DNA of 14,127 nucleotides from a virus (IMGVR_UViG_3300021399_000006:1-14127); one strand, 5' to 3'. Shown: positions 1,426 through 14,127, numbered from the stretch's first letter. Notes: a model not told the origin generated them from the letters alone. Translations and numbers: made by a program.

Positions 1426-1487
1426 AACAAAAATGGGATTTGAACCCATAACATATACTTTAGAGTATAAATTGCTGTATGTGTCTT
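1426..1487 (-). ncRNA. truncated tRNA-like element (T-arm plus 3' acceptor-like tail plus hairpin; no D-arm or 5' acceptor)
   Basis: T-arm ATGGG-TTCAAAT-CCCAT (1433-1449) preceded by the hairpin TATAC-TCTAAA-GTATA, whose 6-nt loop contains CUA. Upstream box AAGACACATACAGCAAT. No complementary 5' acceptor strand is found. Confidence 0.4.
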
Positions 1488-3021: not shown

Positions 3022-3032
3022 AAATAGGTAAC

Positions 3033-3104
3033 CACCCTTCTGGGATTCGAACCCAGGACTGTTGATTTAGAGTCAACTGACTTAGACCGCTTGTCGAAAG
3101 GGCG
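3033..3104 (-). tRNA. suppressor tRNA, anticodon CTA (reads UAG amber)
   Basis: Acceptor CGCCCTT/AAGGGTG (one G.U), U8 present, D-stem GAC/GTC, anticodon stem GTTGA/TCAAC with canonical 7-nt loop C-U-CUA-A-A, T-arm CTGGG-TTCGAAT-CCCAG, discriminator G. D-loop and discriminator are similar to the neighbouring tRNA-Gln. Confidence 0.8.
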
Positions 3105-4703: not shown

Positions 4704-4766
4704 GCTTGTGACAGGATTCGAACCTGTAAACTTACAAAAGTAAGAAGTTGCTGTATATGTCTTTGT
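4704..4766 (-). ncRNA. truncated tRNA-like element (T-arm plus 3' tail plus tetraloop hairpin), paralogous to the element at 1426-1487
   Basis: T-arm ACAGG-TTCGAAT-CCTGT (4711-4727), hairpin CTTAC-TTTT-GTAAG, upstream box AAGACATATACAGCAAC (15/17 identical to the box at 1471-1487). No 5' acceptor. Confidence 0.4.
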
Positions 4767-5532: not shown

Positions 5533-6179
5533 CAATTGAATAACTTAATTATATCTATGAATAACACCCCTTCGGGTTGCTGGCAATAACCTTCTCTTAT
5601 ATTCGACCACCAAGGAGACATACCTGAGCGGTTAGGAGCGACCTAAACGCTATATGCCCCATCTGTTCAAGACAGATAAATCTTGTAGAGGACTTTGCAT
5701 ACCTCTAACTTTCAGCTACCTTTCAGAAAATTTACATAATAACTTGTATAAGAAGTTATTCAAATTTTGTTGTCTACGCACTTTTAGCCTACTCGTACCT
5801 TGACCCAATCTTATACACGACTTCCGCCGCTTCATGTGCGCTAACCCCTTATGGAAATTCCAAGGTTTGCAAAGTTTTCCACGCTTCACCTAACTTGGAT
5901 TAGTGCTCTCGTTAAAGAACCCTATATTATGGAGTCGATTGGAACAGTGTCTTTAAGAGCGATTACCCCAGTGCTATTGACTAAACCATTTCTTTAGACC
6001 TGGCGTTTTATACGTCACCGCATAAAAACTTTTTTCCTAAGAAAGTATCCTTCCTTATTCTGGTTATTCGTAAAGCCAATACCTCAGCGTCATGGAATTG
6101 ACGTTTATCACTGAGTTGCTTCATAAATATAACTAAATTATTCAATTGTCAATGTTCTTTTGTTGATAATTCAACATAG

Positions 6180-6854: not shown

Positions 6855-6910
6855 GCTCTATGCAGGAGTCGAACCTACACTCACAAAAGTAAGTTCCATC
6901 ATAATAGAGC
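6855..6910 (-). ncRNA. 56-nt 'armless' tRNA-like minihelix (perfect 7-bp acceptor plus T-arm plus one tetraloop hairpin; no D-arm or anticodon arm)
   Basis: GCTCTAT ... CTTAC-TTTT-GTGAG ... GTAGG-TTCGACT-CCTGC ... ATAGAGC with discriminator A. The hairpin resembles the one in the 4704-4766 element. Confidence 0.45.
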
Positions 6911-6990
6911 AGTCTCCTTTTATCTCTCTTATATTTTAAAAGAGCCAAAAAATAATGCTCTGAAAGAGGAAAGTATGATACGTATCAAGT

Positions 6991-7063
6991 AGCCCCTGGG
7001 GGAATTGAACCCACCATCTTGACCTTGAAAGGGTCATATCCTGTCCTTTTAGAAGAAGGAGCC
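6991..7063 (-). tRNA. tRNA-Glu (anticodon TTC)
   Basis: Anticodon stem TGACC/GGTCA with loop CTTTCAA. T-arm GTGGG-TTCAATT-CCCCC. Acceptor GGCTCCT/AGGGGCT (all paired including G.U). Confidence 0.85.
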
Positions 7064-7087
7064 ATATTTCTTTCATTTTCTATAAAT

Positions 7088-7116
7088 ATTATAATAAAAA
7101 TTTTTTAAAATTGCAA
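7088..7116 (-). promoter_or_regulatory. promoter TTGCAA-17-TATAAT
   Basis: -35 at 7111-7116, -10 at 7088-7093; drives tRNA-Glu(TTC) after a leader of about 20 nt. Confidence 0.65.
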
Positions 7117-7266
7117 ATAAAAATGGGAACTTATATTAACACTGTATTCCCCGATAGGTTTGCGCGCGCCTTATCTTACAGCGGGTTTTCCTAAGTCCAG
7201 TTTTCCTTGTCATTCCCATGCATTTATATACCGAGCGAGAACAGACGCGGTTAAGGAGTCCTTAGT

Positions 7267-7346
7267 AGGGGACACGGGATTCGAACCCGCACGCACAGGG
7301 CACTAGATCCTAAGTCTAGGGTGGCTACCAGTTACACCAATCCCCC
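7267..7346 (-). tRNA. tRNA-Leu (anticodon TAG), class II
   Basis: Acceptor GGGGGAT/GTCCCCT. U8-G9. D-stem GTG/CAC. Anticodon stem CTAGA/TCTAG with loop CTTAGGA. 12-nt variable arm. T-arm GCGGG-TTCGAAT-CCCGT. Confidence 0.85.
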
Positions 7347-7518
7347 ATATAAGATAGATGCTTGCCATAGCTTTAGCCCCGCTCGGGTATCTATCGTACC
7401 CTATCTCATTCACTGGAGATGCAGTAAAAGTTTTACCTTTATAACTTTCAAAGATACTTATTCTTCATCGGGCGATAAGTTCTTACCTGACCCTTTCCCT
7501 TCACACCTCAAAGGATGA

Positions 7519-7585
7519 AAACGGCTATAATTTCAATAGCTTAGATTTACATTGGCAGAAGGTAAATCAACTTCTTTTTTACTCA
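7519..7585. repeat. copy A of a repeat unit (cggctat ... caaNagcttagatttaca ... gaaggtaaaNcaacttc)
   Basis: Shares three blocks with copy B. It contains the hairpins GCTAT-AATTTCA-ATAGC and AGAAG-GTAAATCAA-CTTCT. Confidence 0.5.
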
Positions 7586-7651
7586 AATTTTAAAAATTTG
7601 AGATAGGTTGAACCTACACCTAAAGGACTTTTTCCAGTAACACCCCAAAAA

Positions 7652-7740
7652 GCAAAGCGGCTATCTATCAACAGCTTAGATTTACACATTCAACCGAGTA
7701 GATTTACGTATTAATAGGAAGGTAAACCAACTTCCTAACG
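7652..7740. repeat. copy B of the same repeat unit, with a 31-nt internal insertion that duplicates tagatttac
   Basis: Hairpin GGAAG-GTAAACCAA-CTTCC, where the outer pair covaries (A-T in copy A, G-C in copy B). Confidence 0.5.
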
Positions 7741-7810
7741 ACCTAGTGGGGAATTGAACCCCAGTCTCTCGGGCGACAACCGAGTGTAATTACCTTTATA
7801 CGACAAGGCC
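7740..7810 (-). tRNA. tRNA-Asp (anticodon GTC)
   Basis: Anticodon stem CTCGG/CCGAG with loop TTGTCGC. T-arm TGGGG-TTCAATT-CCCCA. Acceptor GGCCTTG/CTAGGTC (one mismatch). Confidence 0.8.
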
Positions 7811-7997
7811 AAACATTAAATAGCTTAGTCCATTTTTTAGGCTCCCTTCTCACTATAGCCTAAATTCCACAGGTCATGACTCCTGTTACTCTAGGTAGTT
7901 CACTTATAGTCTCACTCTCCCGACTTCCGTGATTTGGCGGACTCTCTTGATGTTTATGTACACTATTAAATCAAGTCACCATTGCTATTTATGTAGC

Positions 7998-8070
7998 GGG
8001 AGCAGTAGGACTTGAACCTACGACATTTTGCTTAACAGGCAAACGCTCTAACCAACTGAGCTATACTCCC
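7998..8070 (-). tRNA. tRNA-Asn (anticodon GTT)
   Basis: Acceptor GGGAGTA/TGCTCCC. Anticodon stem TTTGC/GCAAA with loop CTGTTAA. T-arm GTAGG-TTCAAGT-CCTAC. Confidence 0.9.
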
Positions 8071-8217
8071 AAATATGAGGGTTACTTTGCGTCTTTTATA
8101 CCGTTTCCCACTAAAGCCACATATCATACGCCTCCAGACGGGCTAATAAGAATCGAGTCTGGATATTTGGTTATGCCGGTGGTAGTTTACCCTCAAAATC
8201 CATGATAACGGTTTAAT

Positions 8218-8291
8218 CATCCCTACAGGCTTTGAACCTGTGTTTCAAGATTGAGAATCTTGTGTCCTGAACCGAACTAGACGAAGGGACG
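8218..8291 (-). tRNA. tRNA-Glu (anticodon CTC)
   Basis: Anticodon stem CAAGA/TCTTG with loop TTCTCAA. T-arm ACAGG-TTCAAAG-CCTGT. Acceptor CGTCCCT/AGGGATG. Confidence 0.85.
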
Positions 8292-8300
8292 ACGGATTAA

Positions 8301-8480
8301 TTAATCCTCATATTCTGTACGTACATAATTTTCTGTTACTTCATAATGAAATCCAATCCAACCAAATCTATCTTCCAAAAATCTCACAGCAGAGAAGCCT
8401 TTAACAAATGTTATATGCTTCTGATTTACATCGTCAAGATACTCAACCATGTAGATAACAGCTGTTCTCTCATTTTTCAT
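8301..8480 (-). CDS. possible small protein (59 aa, below the ORF-track cutoff)
   Basis: ATG at 8480; frame MKNERTAVIYMVEYLDDVNQKHITFVKGFSAVRFLEDRFGWIGFHYEVTENYVRTEYED-TAA; immediately downstream of promoter 8547-8575; weak SD. Confidence 0.35.
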   Translation of the reverse strand: MKNERTAVIYMVEYLDDVNQKHITFVKGFSAVRFLEDRFGWIGFHYEVTENYVRTEYED

Positions 8481-8546
8481 AATTTAAAGACCCCCTGAAA
8501 TGATATTTTTTAGTTTGTTTTCGTTTCTTTTTCTTACGATATAAAT

Positions 8547-8575
8547 ATTATAACAAAAAATTTTTAAAAATTCAA
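8547..8575 (-). promoter_or_regulatory. promoter TTGAAT-17-TGTTATAAT (extended -10)
   Basis: -35 at 8570-8575, -10 at 8547-8552; drives the small ORF and tRNA-Glu(CTC). Confidence 0.7.
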
Positions 8576-8711
8576 ATGATATGCAGTGTGCTGTTACGCC
8601 AAAGGGAAGTCAGTCCTTACCAGTTACGGGGTGACTTTCTACTTCTATTTAATAAAATAGTCCCACTCTTTAAAAGATGGATGCTTTTAATCCTACTTTC
8701 TGCATATAAGA

Positions 8712-9920: not shown

Positions 9921-9936
9921 ATTTTTCTCCTTTAAT

Positions 9937-10007
9937 TGCGGGGATAGGATTCGAACCTACAATCACCGGGTCAAAAACCGGCCGCTTTACCGTTAGCGTA
10001 CCCCGCG
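9937..10007 (-). tRNA. unusual tRNA with an E. coli tRNA-fMet-like acceptor stem (CGCGGGG ... CCCCGCA-A, C1xA72) and an 8-nt anticodon loop UUUUUGAC (UUG or UUU reading; Gln-like D-loop)
   Basis: T-arm GTAGG-TTCGAAT-CCTAT. D-stem CGCT/AGCG perfect. The anticodon stem GCCGG/CCGGT closes an 8-nt loop. D-loop AACGGTAA and loop TTTTGAx resemble the tRNA-Gln at 232-302. Confidence 0.5.
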
Positions 10008-13711: not shown

Positions 13712-14127
13712 TTATTTATAAAAAGTTTTATTTAAATTATTTTTTGAGCAACTGATTACCATTTTATCAGAATAACAATCAATATAACATCTACCATTTT
13801 CATATGCCATCATAACGATAGCACCTTTATTAATAAAGACTTTATATGTTGATATACGGCCTCCGCTTGATTTACCATGATGATAATTAGATAATCCTAC
13901 TTTAGGTTTAGCGGCATTAATTTGTACTATCTTAACTCCATTTCTATCAGAGTGCCACTAAAGTTTAAATACATCACATTTTAAAGCACTACCTTTTTCT
14001 TTTACGAGTACGTCTATTGCTTCATACGATAGGTCTCCCGCAGTAAAAAATTTCCATCCATTTAAATTAAACATTAATGCAACAGACATCATGTTAACAA
14101 AATGGTGGTCATCAAATTGTTTAAGTT
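13712..14127 (-). CDS. 3' part of a gene that starts beyond the window end; about 138 codons open with one internal in-frame TAG (13958-13960)
   Basis: Frame ...LKQFDDHHFVNMMSVALMFNLNGWKFFTAGDLSYEAIDVLVKEKGSALKCDVFKL-TAG-WHSDRNGVKIVQINAAKPKVGLSNYHHGKSSGGRISTYKVFINKGAIVMMAYENGRCYIDCYSDKMVISCSKNNLNKTFYK-TAA. The stop lies just before the terminator hairpin. No TAA or TGA occurs across the whole span. Confidence 0.45.

What the first reader, a model, noticed from the sequence alone, without database searches (positions are those of the whole stretch)
7519..7740. Two copies of a repeat unit carrying a hairpin with a compensatory base-pair change
Copies at 7519-7585 and 7652-7740 share cggctat, caa(t/c)agcttagatttaca and gaaggtaaa(t/c)caacttc. 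The terminal hairpin is AGAAG-GTAAATCAA-CTTCT in copy A and GGAAG-GTAAACCAA-CTTCC in copy B. The closing pair covaries (A-T to G-C), which points to selection on RNA structure. Copy B has a 31-nt insert that itself repeats tagatttac. They lie between tRNA-Leu(TAG) and tRNA-Asp, next to a perfect 17-nt palindrome CAAATTTTAAAAATTTG (7584-7600).
Basis: seen in the sequence. Interest (0 to 1): 0.5.

Follow-up and report, generated by a model that had tools for sequence, protein, structure and literature searches.

The report
Structured RNA in phage tRNA array
The two repeats are the front end of an uncatalogued folded RNA of about 230 bases, plus a shortened second copy, that sits between transfer-RNA genes in a group of large rumen/gut phages and is far better conserved than the neighbouring proteins; its function is still unknown.

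Summary
The anatomy is different, though. All tRNAs run on the minus strand, and so does this RNA. Copy A is the 5' domain of a 232-nt element (7347-7578, minus) that ends 6 nt before tRNA-Leu(UAG). I found the same element in 18 distinct phage sequences. A covariance model finds one full copy per locus. Of 60 proposed base pairs, 41 show compensatory changes and 94.7% of cells pair, against 36-48% and 6-12 pairs in slid controls. S1 covaries at all five pairs. S2 covaries in one relative. Copy B (about 7606-7737) is a diverged duplicate of the 5' half, followed by a 10-bp AT hairpin. One close relative shares it and another lacks it. Rfam 15 and GenBank phages have no match. The best reading is a non-coding RNA co-transcribed with tRNAs and released by tRNA-processing enzymes. 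That step is inferred, and the function is unknown.

The parts
7347..7578 (-). Full-length structured RNA element of 232 nt.
   Evidence: Covariance model R1 scores it 225.8 bits, E=5.7e-58, and finds homologues in 18 distinct loci. 41 of 60 pairs have compensatory changes. Variable positions show no 3-base periodicity, p=0.89.
7557..7575 (-). On the RNA strand it reads AGAAG (7575-7571) pairing with CUUCU (7561-7557).
   Evidence: All 5 pairs covary across homologues (helix 1, helix 1).
7544..7568 (-). Stem S2 of copy A. GAUUUAC (7568-7562, inside the S1 loop) pairs with GUAAAUC (7550-7544). Together with S1 it forms an H-type pseudoknot: L1 = UU, no nucleotide between S2 5' and S1 3', L3 = GCCAAU.
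   Evidence: 100% of cells pair in 18 sequences. L369 has GGUUUAU/AUAAACC, which is two compensatory pairs. Copy B and L114 each have one G-U intermediate.
7524..7541 (-). Hairpin P2 of copy A (GCUAU ... AUAGC).
   Evidence: The fourth pair varies as G-C, G-U and A-U. The G-U pairs are allowed only on the minus strand.
7353..7401 (-). 3' domain. Hairpin P9 (GGGUA 7401-7397 with UACCC 7389-7385) has a loop, GAUAGA (7395-7390), that pairs with the 3' tail UCUAUC (7358-7353). This is the 3' pseudoknot.
   Evidence: 5 of 6 pseudoknot pairs and 3 of 5 P9 pairs show compensatory changes. The pseudoknot was not part of the model the alignment was fitted to.
7606..7737 (-). Copy B, a truncated and diverged duplicate of the 5' half of the element. 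It has S1 UAGGAAG/CUUCCUA (7737-7731 with 7721-7715) and S2 GGUUUAC (7728-7722) with GUAAAUC (7707-7701, and a second copy at 7685-7679). It also has P2 (7676-7672 with 7663-7659), P4 CUUUUU/AAAAAG (7652-7647 with 7633-7628) and a P5-like UAGGU/ACCUA hairpin (7603-7618).
   Evidence: Local alignment to copy A scores 61, against 21.7 +/- 3.6. An nhmmer profile hit gives E=2.1e-10. S1 and P4 keep pairing through compensatory changes, read directly from the sequence. The same copy exists in L364 at 95% identity and is absent in L021.
7582..7602 (-). AT-only hairpin of 10 bp (CUCAAAUUUU U AAAAUUUGAG) between copy B and the full element.
   Evidence: I3. Folding gives -6.1 kcal/mol, z=-5.9. L364 has CUCAAACUU/AAGUUUGAG, a U-A to C-G double change that keeps the stem. 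No T-run follows it and the terminator scan does not call it.
7738..7811 (-). tRNA-Asp(GUC), directly 5' of copy B on the RNA strand. S1 of copy B starts at the first nucleotide after the ARAGORN-called tRNA end (7738).
7265..7346 (-). tRNA-Leu(UAG), directly 3' of the element.
   Evidence: A tRNA-Leu(tag) immediately follows the element in 16 of the 18 distinct loci, lies 107 nt downstream in L369, and was not found in L371.
8547..8575 (-). Nearest upstream sigma-70-like promoter on the RNA strand. The next promoter (7088-7117) lies downstream of tRNA-Leu. The inferred transcription unit is tRNA-Glu, tRNA-Asn, tRNA-Asp, copy B, element, tRNA-Leu.
   Evidence: (family D1). This is a consensus match only and transcription has not been shown.

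Best explanation
Shown: the two 'repeat units' belong to a non-coding, heavily base-paired RNA encoded on the minus strand, the same strand as the tRNAs. The full element (7347-7578) folds into about 11 helices. Three of them are pseudoknots: the S1/S2 H-type knot at the 5' end, a P5/P6 knot, and a knot between the P9 loop and the 3' tail. The conserved tagatttac motif is the other strand of S2. Copy B is a second, truncated 5' domain that keeps S1, S2, P2 and P4 through compensatory or wobble changes and is closed by an AT hairpin.

Inferred: the element is transcribed in one unit with tRNA-Glu, tRNA-Asn, tRNA-Asp and tRNA-Leu from the promoter near 8575. It is then cut out by the host tRNA-processing enzymes. 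RNase P would cut at the 5' end of tRNA-Leu, 6-8 nt after the last pseudoknot strand. RNase Z or an equivalent 3' activity would cut at the end of the upstream tRNA, 0-4 nt before S1. The released RNA of about 230 nt would be compact and stable, with the 5' pseudoknot capping the newly made 5' end. It would act as a free structured RNA during infection, like the other RNAs of unknown role that phages keep in their tRNA clusters. Its molecular target is not known.
For: Family: homologues occur in 18 distinct phage sequences, with one full copy each.

Structure on the model-fitted alignment A3: 94.7% of cells pair and 41 of 60 pairs have changes on both sides. Slid controls give 36-48% and 6-12 pairs. 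None of 500 shuffles reaches the observed value.

Structure on the plain MAFFT alignment A2: 93.2% paired and 24 of 59 pairs, against 4-7 in slid controls. The three pseudoknot stems were not in the model, so their support is independent.

5' module on MAFFT alignment A4, which includes both B copies: S1 covaries at 5 of 5 pairs and S2 is 100% paired.

Strand: 94.7% paired on the minus strand against 87.3% on the plus strand.

Non-coding: no codon periodicity (p=0.89), and 1-nt indels separate near-identical relatives.

Selection: the element is about 72% identical between clades, while neighbouring proteins are 28-38% identical.

Position: S1 begins 0-4 nt after a tRNA end in most loci. The last pseudoknot strand ends 6-8 nt before tRNA-Leu(UAG).

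Transcription signals: promoters lie only outside the unit and no terminator is called inside it.

Precedent: T4 keeps two 'small, stable RNAs' (rnaC, rnaD) directly after tRNA-Arg in its tRNA cluster. A ROOL RNA lies in this same array.
Against: There are no expression or end-mapping data, so transcription, processing and stability are all inferred.

Thermodynamic folding of the whole spacer on the minus strand is no better than shuffles (z=-0.57). The individual stems are weak, at -3 to -7 kcal/mol. The case for structure therefore rests on covariation.

The sequences fall into only about 7-8 lineages. The effective sequence number of the model is 1.79. The shuffle control does not correct for relatedness.

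S2 covariation comes from one sequence, L369. The central junction is ambiguous between long-range P3 and a local GCUA/UGGC hairpin.

The tRNA punctuation has exceptions. L363 and L369 have no tRNA directly upstream. L369 has 107 nt between the element and tRNA-Leu. L371 has no tRNA-Leu(tag) called downstream.

The near-invariance of S2, L3 and several loops suggests a specific partner or chemistry that this explanation does not name.
Confidence: 0.6

Rival explanations
1. The 5' pseudoknot module is a small self-cleaving ribozyme, or a dedicated nuclease guide, that cuts just upstream of itself and so makes the 3' end of the preceding tRNA. HDV-like theta ribozymes do this in gut phages.
For: The module starts 0-4 nt after a tRNA end in the window (twice), L021, L364 (twice), L365, L311, L371 and the L071/L106 clade. 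S2 and L3 are almost invariant while other helices vary freely, as expected for a catalytic core. Theta ribozymes sit within 5 nt of phage tRNAs, often tRNA-Leu, tRNA-Met or suppressor tRNAs (PMC10879173). This array carries an amber suppressor tRNA.
Against: The strand order is S1-5', S2-5', S1-3', S2-3', then a hairpin. That is a simple H-type knot, not the nested double pseudoknot of HDV-like ribozymes. Only 9 nt lie between the S1 strands, too few for P2 plus P3 (sequence). No ribozyme family of Rfam 15 matches even at E<=10. L363 and L369 have the module without an upstream tRNA. Cleavage cannot be tested here.
Confidence: 0.07
2. The element is a cis-acting leader of tRNA-Leu(UAG). It would be a sensor or folding device, riboswitch-like or T-box-like, that controls read-through into the tRNA or RNase P maturation of it.
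For: It lies directly 5' of a tRNA-Leu(tag) in 16 of 18 loci, and within 107 nt in a 17th. The linkage survives replacement of the tRNA by a different type: 82 nt in the window and L365, 76 nt elsewhere. Relatives L367/L368, L370, L372, L376 and L377 lack both the element and tRNA-Leu(tag). A conserved CUAAG at the S2/P2 junction is complementary to anticodon-loop bases CUUAG. There is an invariant UGGC, and there are competing pairings: UAUCUUU against the P7 loop, and P3 against the local hairpin.
Against: There is no terminator or other expression platform before the tRNA. The Rfam T-box model and all riboswitch models give no hit at E<=10. The third base of CUA varies (A, C, U) while the anticodon does not. 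UGGC would pair with a GCCA 3' end, but this tRNA has discriminator A. L378 has a tRNA-Leu(tag) with no element and L371 has the element with no tRNA-Leu(tag). Like-for-like tRNA replacement is also seen for tRNA-Asn and tRNA-Asp, so conserved gene order explains it.
Confidence: 0.12
3. Copy B is a non-functional by-product of an unequal recombination that duplicated a tRNA-plus-leader segment. It is too young to have decayed, and only the full element is functional.
For: Copy B is present only in the window and its closest relative L364, and absent from L021, which is 89-90% identical in the element. It lacks the whole 3' half. The window copy carries a further 22-nt internal duplication. L371 shows what a decayed extra module looks like: AT-rich, 10 bits.
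Against: Copy B differs substantially from copy A, yet S1 and P4 keep pairing through double changes, and S2 and P2 through G-U. Between the window and L364 it is 95% identical (109/115), more than the full element at 89% (206/232). The AT hairpin that closes it has a compensatory U-A to C-G change.
Confidence: 0.35
4. The repeats act at the DNA level, as protein-binding or recombination sites or as scars of a mobile element, or they are decayed tRNA pseudogenes. On this view the pair swap is a coincidence.
For: tRNA genes in this array are exchanged like cassettes between conserved spacers. A T-arm-like motif lies in copy B at 7603-7618 (D13). Part of the copy B insert resembles tRNA-Asp (D1). 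An inverted repeat is adjacent.
Against: Compensatory changes occur at 41 of 60 pairs, with strand-specific G-U pairs. That pattern fits RNA and not DNA sites. The tRNA model gives no hit in 7347-7737 at E<=10. There is one copy per genome and no dispersed family. No transposase or integrase is nearby.
Confidence: 0.03

Closest known systems
ROOL and GOLLD RNAs (large ornate RNAs of phages and prophages, often next to tRNA islands; Rfam RF03087, RF01998)
   Same: They are encoded in phage tRNA arrays, multi-pseudoknotted, non-coding and of unknown function. A ROOL copy lies 1.2 kb away in this same array. PMC12286853 describes both as 'often near tRNA islands'.
   Different: There is no sequence or structure match to either model. 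This RNA is much smaller, at 232 nt against about 580 and over 800. It is tightly abutted by tRNAs on both sides. Nothing is known about whether it multimerises.
Phage T4 species 1 and species 2 RNAs (rnaC, rnaD)
   Same: They are small stable RNAs of unknown function encoded inside a phage tRNA cluster, directly after a tRNA (1 nt after tRNA-Arg) and on the tRNA strand. By established knowledge of T4 they are matured with the tRNAs.
   Different: There is no homology. Model R1 finds nothing in the T4 cluster, with a best score of 3.9 bits. The T4 RNAs are 119-139 nt and lie at the end of the cluster, not between two tRNAs.
Theta ribozymes (minimal HDV-like ribozymes next to gut-phage tRNAs; PMC10879173)
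   Same: A structured, pseudoknotted RNA begins within a few nucleotides of the 3' end of a phage tRNA, in phages that carry suppressor tRNAs.
   Different: The topology is a simple H-type knot and not the nested double pseudoknot. No Rfam HDV-like hit was found. Theta ribozymes are about 50-60 nt stand-alone units, whereas here the knot is the first domain of a 232-nt RNA. Catalysis is untested.
T-box leader RNAs (RF00230)
   Same: They are 200-300-nt structured leaders with a pseudoknot and a UGGN motif, and they are functionally tied to one tRNA species.
   Different: T-boxes precede aminoacyl-tRNA synthetase or amino-acid genes and end in a terminator/antiterminator or a Shine-Dalgarno switch. 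Here the downstream gene is a tRNA, there is no terminator and there is no model match.
Functional tRNA-spacer RNAs such as E. coli 3'ETS-leuZ (from my own knowledge, not checked here)
   Same: An RNA released from a polycistronic tRNA transcript by tRNA processing has a function of its own.
   Different: 3'ETS-leuZ is a short, weakly structured sponge for small RNAs. This element is long, pseudoknotted and conserved mainly in its structure.

Membership tests
H-type RNA pseudoknot (5' module) | Two stems in crossing order: S1-5', S2-5', S1-3', S2-3'. | tested here: met
   AGAAG-UU-GAUUUAC-CUUCU-GCCAAU-GUAAAUC in copy A, with the same order in copy B and all homologues.
H-type RNA pseudoknot (5' module) | Both stems are supported by compensatory changes. 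| tested here: met
   S1 covaries at 5 of 5 pairs. S2 is 100% paired, with 2 pairs changed on both sides (L369 only) and 2 G-U intermediates. The support for S2 is thin.
H-type RNA pseudoknot (5' module) | Loop lengths are sterically compatible: L1 of 1-3 nt across a 6-7-bp S2, and L3 of at least 3 nt across a 3-7-bp S1. | tested here: met
   L1 is 2-3 nt, there are 0 nt between S2-5' and S1-3', and L3 is 6-9 nt. The criterion comes from general knowledge of pseudoknot geometry.
RNA released from a tRNA transcript by tRNA processing | The RNA is flanked by tRNA genes on the same strand within a few nucleotides, inside one transcription unit. | tested here: met
   The gap to the upstream tRNA is 0-4 nt and to tRNA-Leu 6-8 nt in most loci. 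Promoters lie only outside the unit. The exceptions are L363, L369 and L371.
RNA released from a tRNA transcript by tRNA processing | A discrete RNA has ends made by RNase P and RNase Z (or equivalent). | not testable with these tools
   This needs RNA-seq, northern blots or end mapping.
tRNA or tRNA pseudogene (RF00005) | Cloverleaf match to the tRNA covariance model. | tested here: not met
   There is no tRNA hit inside 7347-7737 at E<=10, and ARAGORN calls none there.
HDV-like / theta ribozyme | Nested double pseudoknot (P1, P1.1, P2, P3, P4) with the cleavage site at the first nucleotide of P1. | tested here: not met
   The strand order does not fit. Only 9 nt separate the S1 strands. There is no HDV-family hit at E<=10.
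HDV-like / theta ribozyme | Self-cleavage activity. | not testable with these tools
   This needs an in vitro cleavage assay.
T-box riboswitch (RF00230) | Lies upstream of an aminoacyl-tRNA synthetase or amino-acid gene and has a terminator/antiterminator or Shine-Dalgarno switch. | tested here: not met
   The downstream gene is a tRNA. No terminator-like site is found in 6900-8700.
T-box riboswitch (RF00230) | Match to the family model (Stem I specifier loop and T-box sequence). | tested here: not met
   No hit at E<=10.
DUF2815 RNA (RF03084) | Score at or above the gathering threshold, and location in the 5' UTR of a DUF2815 gene with a start codon at the 3' end. | tested here: not met
   The score is 23.1 bits against a gathering score of 41.2, at 7422-7488. 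The model's AUG aligns to CUG and no ORF follows.
ROOL RNA (RF03087) | Match to the family model. | tested here: not met
   ROOL matches 5545-6139 only and nothing in 7330-7760.
Intrinsic terminator (for the hairpins) | A G+C-rich stem followed by a T-run on the transcribed strand. | tested here: not met
   No terminator-like sites were found. On the minus strand both S1 of copy A and the AT hairpin are followed by A-runs.
Protein-coding gene | A conserved reading frame and 3-base periodicity of substitutions. | tested here: not met
   Variable columns per phase are 50/70, 49/67 and 51/68 (p=0.89). Frame-shifting 1-nt indels separate close relatives. The longest open frame changes phase and strand between relatives.

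The most novel reading that the evidence does not exclude
The nearly invariant 5' pseudoknot (S1/S2 with L3 GCCAAU), placed right after tRNA 3' ends, could be a new class of self-cleaving or nuclease-recruiting RNA that lets these phages mature CCA-less tRNAs independently of host 3' processing. The 232-nt RNA behind it could be a new small 'ornate' RNA that assembles or binds a translation component, for example through its Shine-Dalgarno-like P7 loop AAAGGUGAAA. Copy B would then be a working minimal version.
Probability: 0.08. Interest if true: 0.85.

Novelty: new member of a known kind. Interest (0 to 1): 0.55.

Why it matters
Phage tRNA arrays are usually annotated as tRNAs plus 'spacers'. 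Here a spacer turns out to be a compact RNA with three pseudoknots. It is kept at about 72% identity across phages whose neighbouring proteins have drifted to about 30% identity. That adds a mid-sized member to the short list of unexplained structured RNAs that large phages carry next to their tRNAs (ROOL, GOLLD, T4 species 1 and 2). The element is short enough for chemical probing, cleavage assays and cryo-EM. Its strict placement between tRNAs offers a concrete way to ask how phages use tRNA-processing enzymes to make other RNAs. It also shows that tRNA genes in these arrays are exchanged while the spacers stay fixed, which bears on how phage tRNA repertoires evolve.

Tried and rejected
GenBank phages: BLAST of the spacer (distant mode) and of the whole window (near mode) found no match.

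Rfam 15: at gathering threshold only tRNAs and ROOL matched. At E<=10 on the spacer the only hit of note was a sub-threshold DUF2815 match, rejected on score and context.

Thermodynamic folding of the 391-nt spacer was uninformative. The plus strand gave z=-2.59 and the minus strand z=-0.57, which is the opposite of what covariation shows.

Pattern scans: the 17-mer scan of viral contigs gave 24 chance hits and one true relative. The pattern GATTTACC..CCAATGTA looked strikingly enriched at a 4-nt gap, but that proved to be a conserved protein motif in unrelated phages. The genome-contig scan gave no true relative, so no host or prophage link was found.

RNAalifold proposed extending S2 with AGUU/AGCU and a UAUCUUUG/UAAAG helix. 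Both are invariant and conflict with covarying helices S1, P2 and P7, so I did not adopt them.

A generic H-type pseudoknot descriptor search of the window returned background numbers, 10 hits against 2-10 in shuffles. Only the two known copies are real.

Other rejected ideas: coding potential and homology to T4 rnaC/rnaD. Whether the element is in the IMG/VR catalogue of 10,006 candidate viral RNAs (PMC10690425) could not be checked, because no supplementary files are held.

The idea that CUAAG is a T-box-like specifier for the UAG anticodon was considered. I set it aside because the third base varies without any change in the tRNA, and the flanking bases are paired.

Full report
**Setting.** The window is a phage-type tRNA array. 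ARAGORN finds 28 tRNAs, all on the minus strand. Rfam adds three more tRNAs and a ROOL RNA at 5545-6139. A sigma-70-like promoter motif recurs 12 times on the minus strand (family D1). The ORFs match only phage protein families of unknown function. The finding lies in the 391-nt spacer 7347-7737. Read on the transcribed strand, this spacer sits between tRNA-Asp (7738-7811) and tRNA-Leu(UAG) (7265-7346).

**Checking the observation.** The 17-mer GAAGGTAAAYCAACTTC, allowing 3 mismatches, occurs only at these two places, against 0.14 expected. A local alignment of the copy B region against copy A scores 61, against 21.7 +/- 3.6 for shuffles. The 'palindrome' is a 10+1+10 inverted repeat at 7582-7602 (I3).

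**Finding relatives.** GenBank phages hold nothing similar. Pattern scans of IMG/VR and JGI metagenomes, followed by local BLAST, brought in true relatives: L021, L098, L074, L071, L106/L107/L111, L114, L311, L363, L134, L145, L187, L188 and L192. To reach intermediate lineages I searched with the neighbouring 224-aa protein and fetched the contigs that encode its homologues. That added L364, L365/L366, L369 and L371, which carry the element. It also added L367/L368, L370, L372, L376, L377 and L378, which do not. The sample names point to rumen and gut metagenomes, and the contigs are 130-180 kb.

**What the relatives show.**
- L021 is 90% identical across the spacer but has only one unit. The window carries a 160-nt insertion made of copy B plus the inverted repeat.
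A block of about 232 nt (window 7347-7578) recurs in every relative.
- In 16 of 18 distinct loci this block ends 6-8 nt before a tRNA-Leu(tag). In most loci it starts 0-4 nt after the end of a tRNA-Asn or tRNA-Asp.
- A covariance model built from 15 sequences finds exactly one full copy per locus, at 137-271 bits, and nothing else.

**Structure.** A scan of all column pairs recovered a set of helices with compensatory changes, which I curated into 11 helices.
- On the plain MAFFT alignment, 93.2% of cells pair and 24 of 59 pairs change on both sides. Slid controls give 4-7 pairs.
- With 18 sequences aligned to the model, 94.7% pair and 41 of 60 pairs have compensatory changes. Slid controls give 36-48% and 6-12 pairs, and none of 500 shuffles reaches the observed value.
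- Three helices are pseudoknots that were not in the model, so the alignment was not fitted to them. They are S2, P5 (CAGGU with the loop of P6), and a 6-bp knot between the loop of hairpin P9 and the 3' tail, in which 5 of 6 pairs covary.
- P7 is supported by paired insertions: GAAAGAUU/AAUCUUUC in L074 and GAAAGGUU/AACCUUUC in L134.

**Strand and coding.** The RNA strand is the tRNA strand. G-U pairs make up 9.6% of cells, and on the plus strand pairing falls to 87.3%. The region is not coding. Variable columns are spread evenly over the three phases (p=0.89), and 1-nt indels separate near-identical relatives.

On the RNA strand the 5' end reads AGAAG-UU-GAUUUAC-CUUCU-GCCAAU-GUAAAUC-UAA-[GCUAU...AUAGC].
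- Its loop contains GAUUUAC, which pairs with the downstream GUAAAUC. S1 and S2 together form a classic H-type pseudoknot with sterically reasonable loops.
- S1 covaries at all five pairs across the family. S2 is paired in all 18 sequences.
- S2 is nearly invariant. L369 has GGUUUAU/AUAAACC, which is two compensatory changes. Copy B (GGUUUAC) and L114 (GUAGAUC) each show a G-U intermediate.

**Copy B.** It begins right after tRNA-Asp. It repeats S1 (extended to 7 bp), S2, P2, P4 and a P5-like hairpin, and then ends in the AT hairpin.
- Relative to copy A, P4 changes from AUCCUU/AAGGGU to CUUUUU/AAAAAG. S2 and P2 each gain a G-U that is allowed only on the minus strand.
- The same copy is present in L364. 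There it lacks the 22-nt internal duplication, and its AT hairpin carries a U-A to C-G double change.
- Between the window and L364, copy B is 95% identical, against 89% for the full element. It is therefore not decaying faster than the full element.
- It is absent from L021. Among all 374 loci held, a profile search finds a second copy only in the window and L364. L371 has a degenerate AT-rich extra module after tRNA-Asn.
- Whether copy B is functional or a young duplicate remains open.

**Strength of selection.** Between clades the element is about 72% identical. The flanking proteins are only 28-38% identical. Several single-stranded stretches are almost invariant: L3 GCCAAU, GUAUCUUUGAAAG, the P7 loop AAAGGUGAAA, GAGCRGGGCUAAA and UGGCA.

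**Mechanism.** The following are shown: a conserved, pseudoknotted, non-coding RNA on the tRNA strand, tightly bracketed by tRNAs, inside a unit with promoters only at its outer edges and no terminator. The following are inferred: co-transcription with the tRNAs, excision by RNase P at its 3' side and by RNase Z or equivalent at its 5' side, and a 5' pseudoknot that caps the new 5' end. The precedents are T4, whose record annotates two 'small, stable RNAs' directly after tRNA-Arg, and ROOL/GOLLD near phage tRNA islands. There is no homology to any of these. The target or activity of the RNA is unknown.

**Rivals.**
- A theta-like self-cleaving role is attractive because of the position (PMC10879173). 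The topology is not HDV-like, no ribozyme model matches, and two loci lack an upstream tRNA.
- A cis-regulatory role for tRNA-Leu(UAG) fits the linkage, including the joint absence of both in several relatives. There is no expression platform, however. L378 has the tRNA without the element, and L371 has the element without the tRNA. Conserved gene order with like-for-like tRNA replacement explains the linkage equally well.
- DNA-level or pseudogene explanations are contradicted by strand-specific covariation.

**Limits.** The sequences fall into only about 7-8 lineages. The shuffle control ignores phylogeny. S2 covariation rests on one sequence. The central junction, P3 against a GCUA/UGGC hairpin, is unresolved. 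Single-sequence thermodynamics do not single out the fold. No expression data exist here. The element may already be an unnamed entry in the IMG/VR catalogue of candidate viral RNAs (PMC10690425), which I could not check.

**Verdict.** The finding is real. It led to an apparently undescribed RNA family, absent from Rfam 15, of a known general kind: structured RNAs embedded in phage tRNA clusters. I rate interest as moderate. The structure is well supported, and the function is unknown but directly testable.

Noticed in passing
window 7265-8070; L364 12490-13300; L021 10450-11290: tRNA genes are exchanged like cassettes while the spacers between them stay 89-92% identical. tRNA-Asn is identical in the window and L364 (75/75) but 54/75 against L021. 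tRNA-Asp is identical in the window and L021, but L364 has a different 74-nt sequence there. tRNA-Leu(tag) is an 82-nt type in the window and L365 and a 76-nt type without a long variable arm in L021, L364 and most others.
   Followed up: partly
L364 12757-12830: The sequence replacing tRNA-Asp in L364 can be drawn as a tRNA-Asp(GUC). It has a 7-bp acceptor stem, an anticodon arm CGUCC-CUGUCAC-GGACG, and aberrant D and T loops. ARAGORN does not call it. I read this by eye only.
   Followed up: no
window 7812-7995 and 7119-7264: The neighbouring spacers are also conserved and non-coding. 7812-7995 is 86-89% identical to L021 and L364 and 72% to L074. 7119-7264 is about 91% identical to L021 and L364. 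They may hold further structured RNAs. Rfam has no match.
   Followed up: no
window 5545-6139 (-): A full-length ROOL RNA (276.7 bits) lies inside the same tRNA array.
   Followed up: no
window 3032-3104 (-) and 9936-10007 (-): There is an amber-suppressor-type tRNA (anticodon CUA, labelled Pyl by ARAGORN) and a tRNA with a four-base anticodon call 'tttg'. Relatives also carry the CUA tRNA. This suggests stop-codon recoding in these phages.
   Followed up: no
window 1433-1452, 2208-2227, 4711-4726, 6864-6879: T-arm-like GGNTTCGAANCC motifs occur where neither ARAGORN nor Rfam calls a tRNA (families D3, D8, D13). They may be unusual or split tRNAs.
   Followed up: no
L371 13741-13910: Two halves of a tRNA-like gene (GCGCTAG... 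and ...CTGGCGCA, with anticodon stem CACGA/TCGTG) are separated by an insert of about 100 nt. Rfam places a weak tRNA hit inside it at 13773-13871 (29.6 bits). It lies about 160 nt downstream of the element, where other phages have tRNA-Leu(UAG).
   Followed up: partly
L369 18264-18527; L371 12405-12669: Phage-encoded tmRNA genes lie inside the tRNA arrays of two relatives.
   Followed up: no
window 8301-8480 (-): A small ORF of 59 aa inside the tRNA array is conserved: 92% identical in L021 and 39% in L098, L134 and L074. It has no family match.
   Followed up: no
window 7422-7488 (-): The P6-P7 part of the element weakly resembles the DUF2815 RNA motif (23.1 bits, E=0.046). The resemblance includes the C.CCC.A.UGAAG loop and the purine-rich Shine-Dalgarno-like stretch. 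It is below threshold and in a different context, but it could hint at a shared sub-motif.
   Followed up: partly
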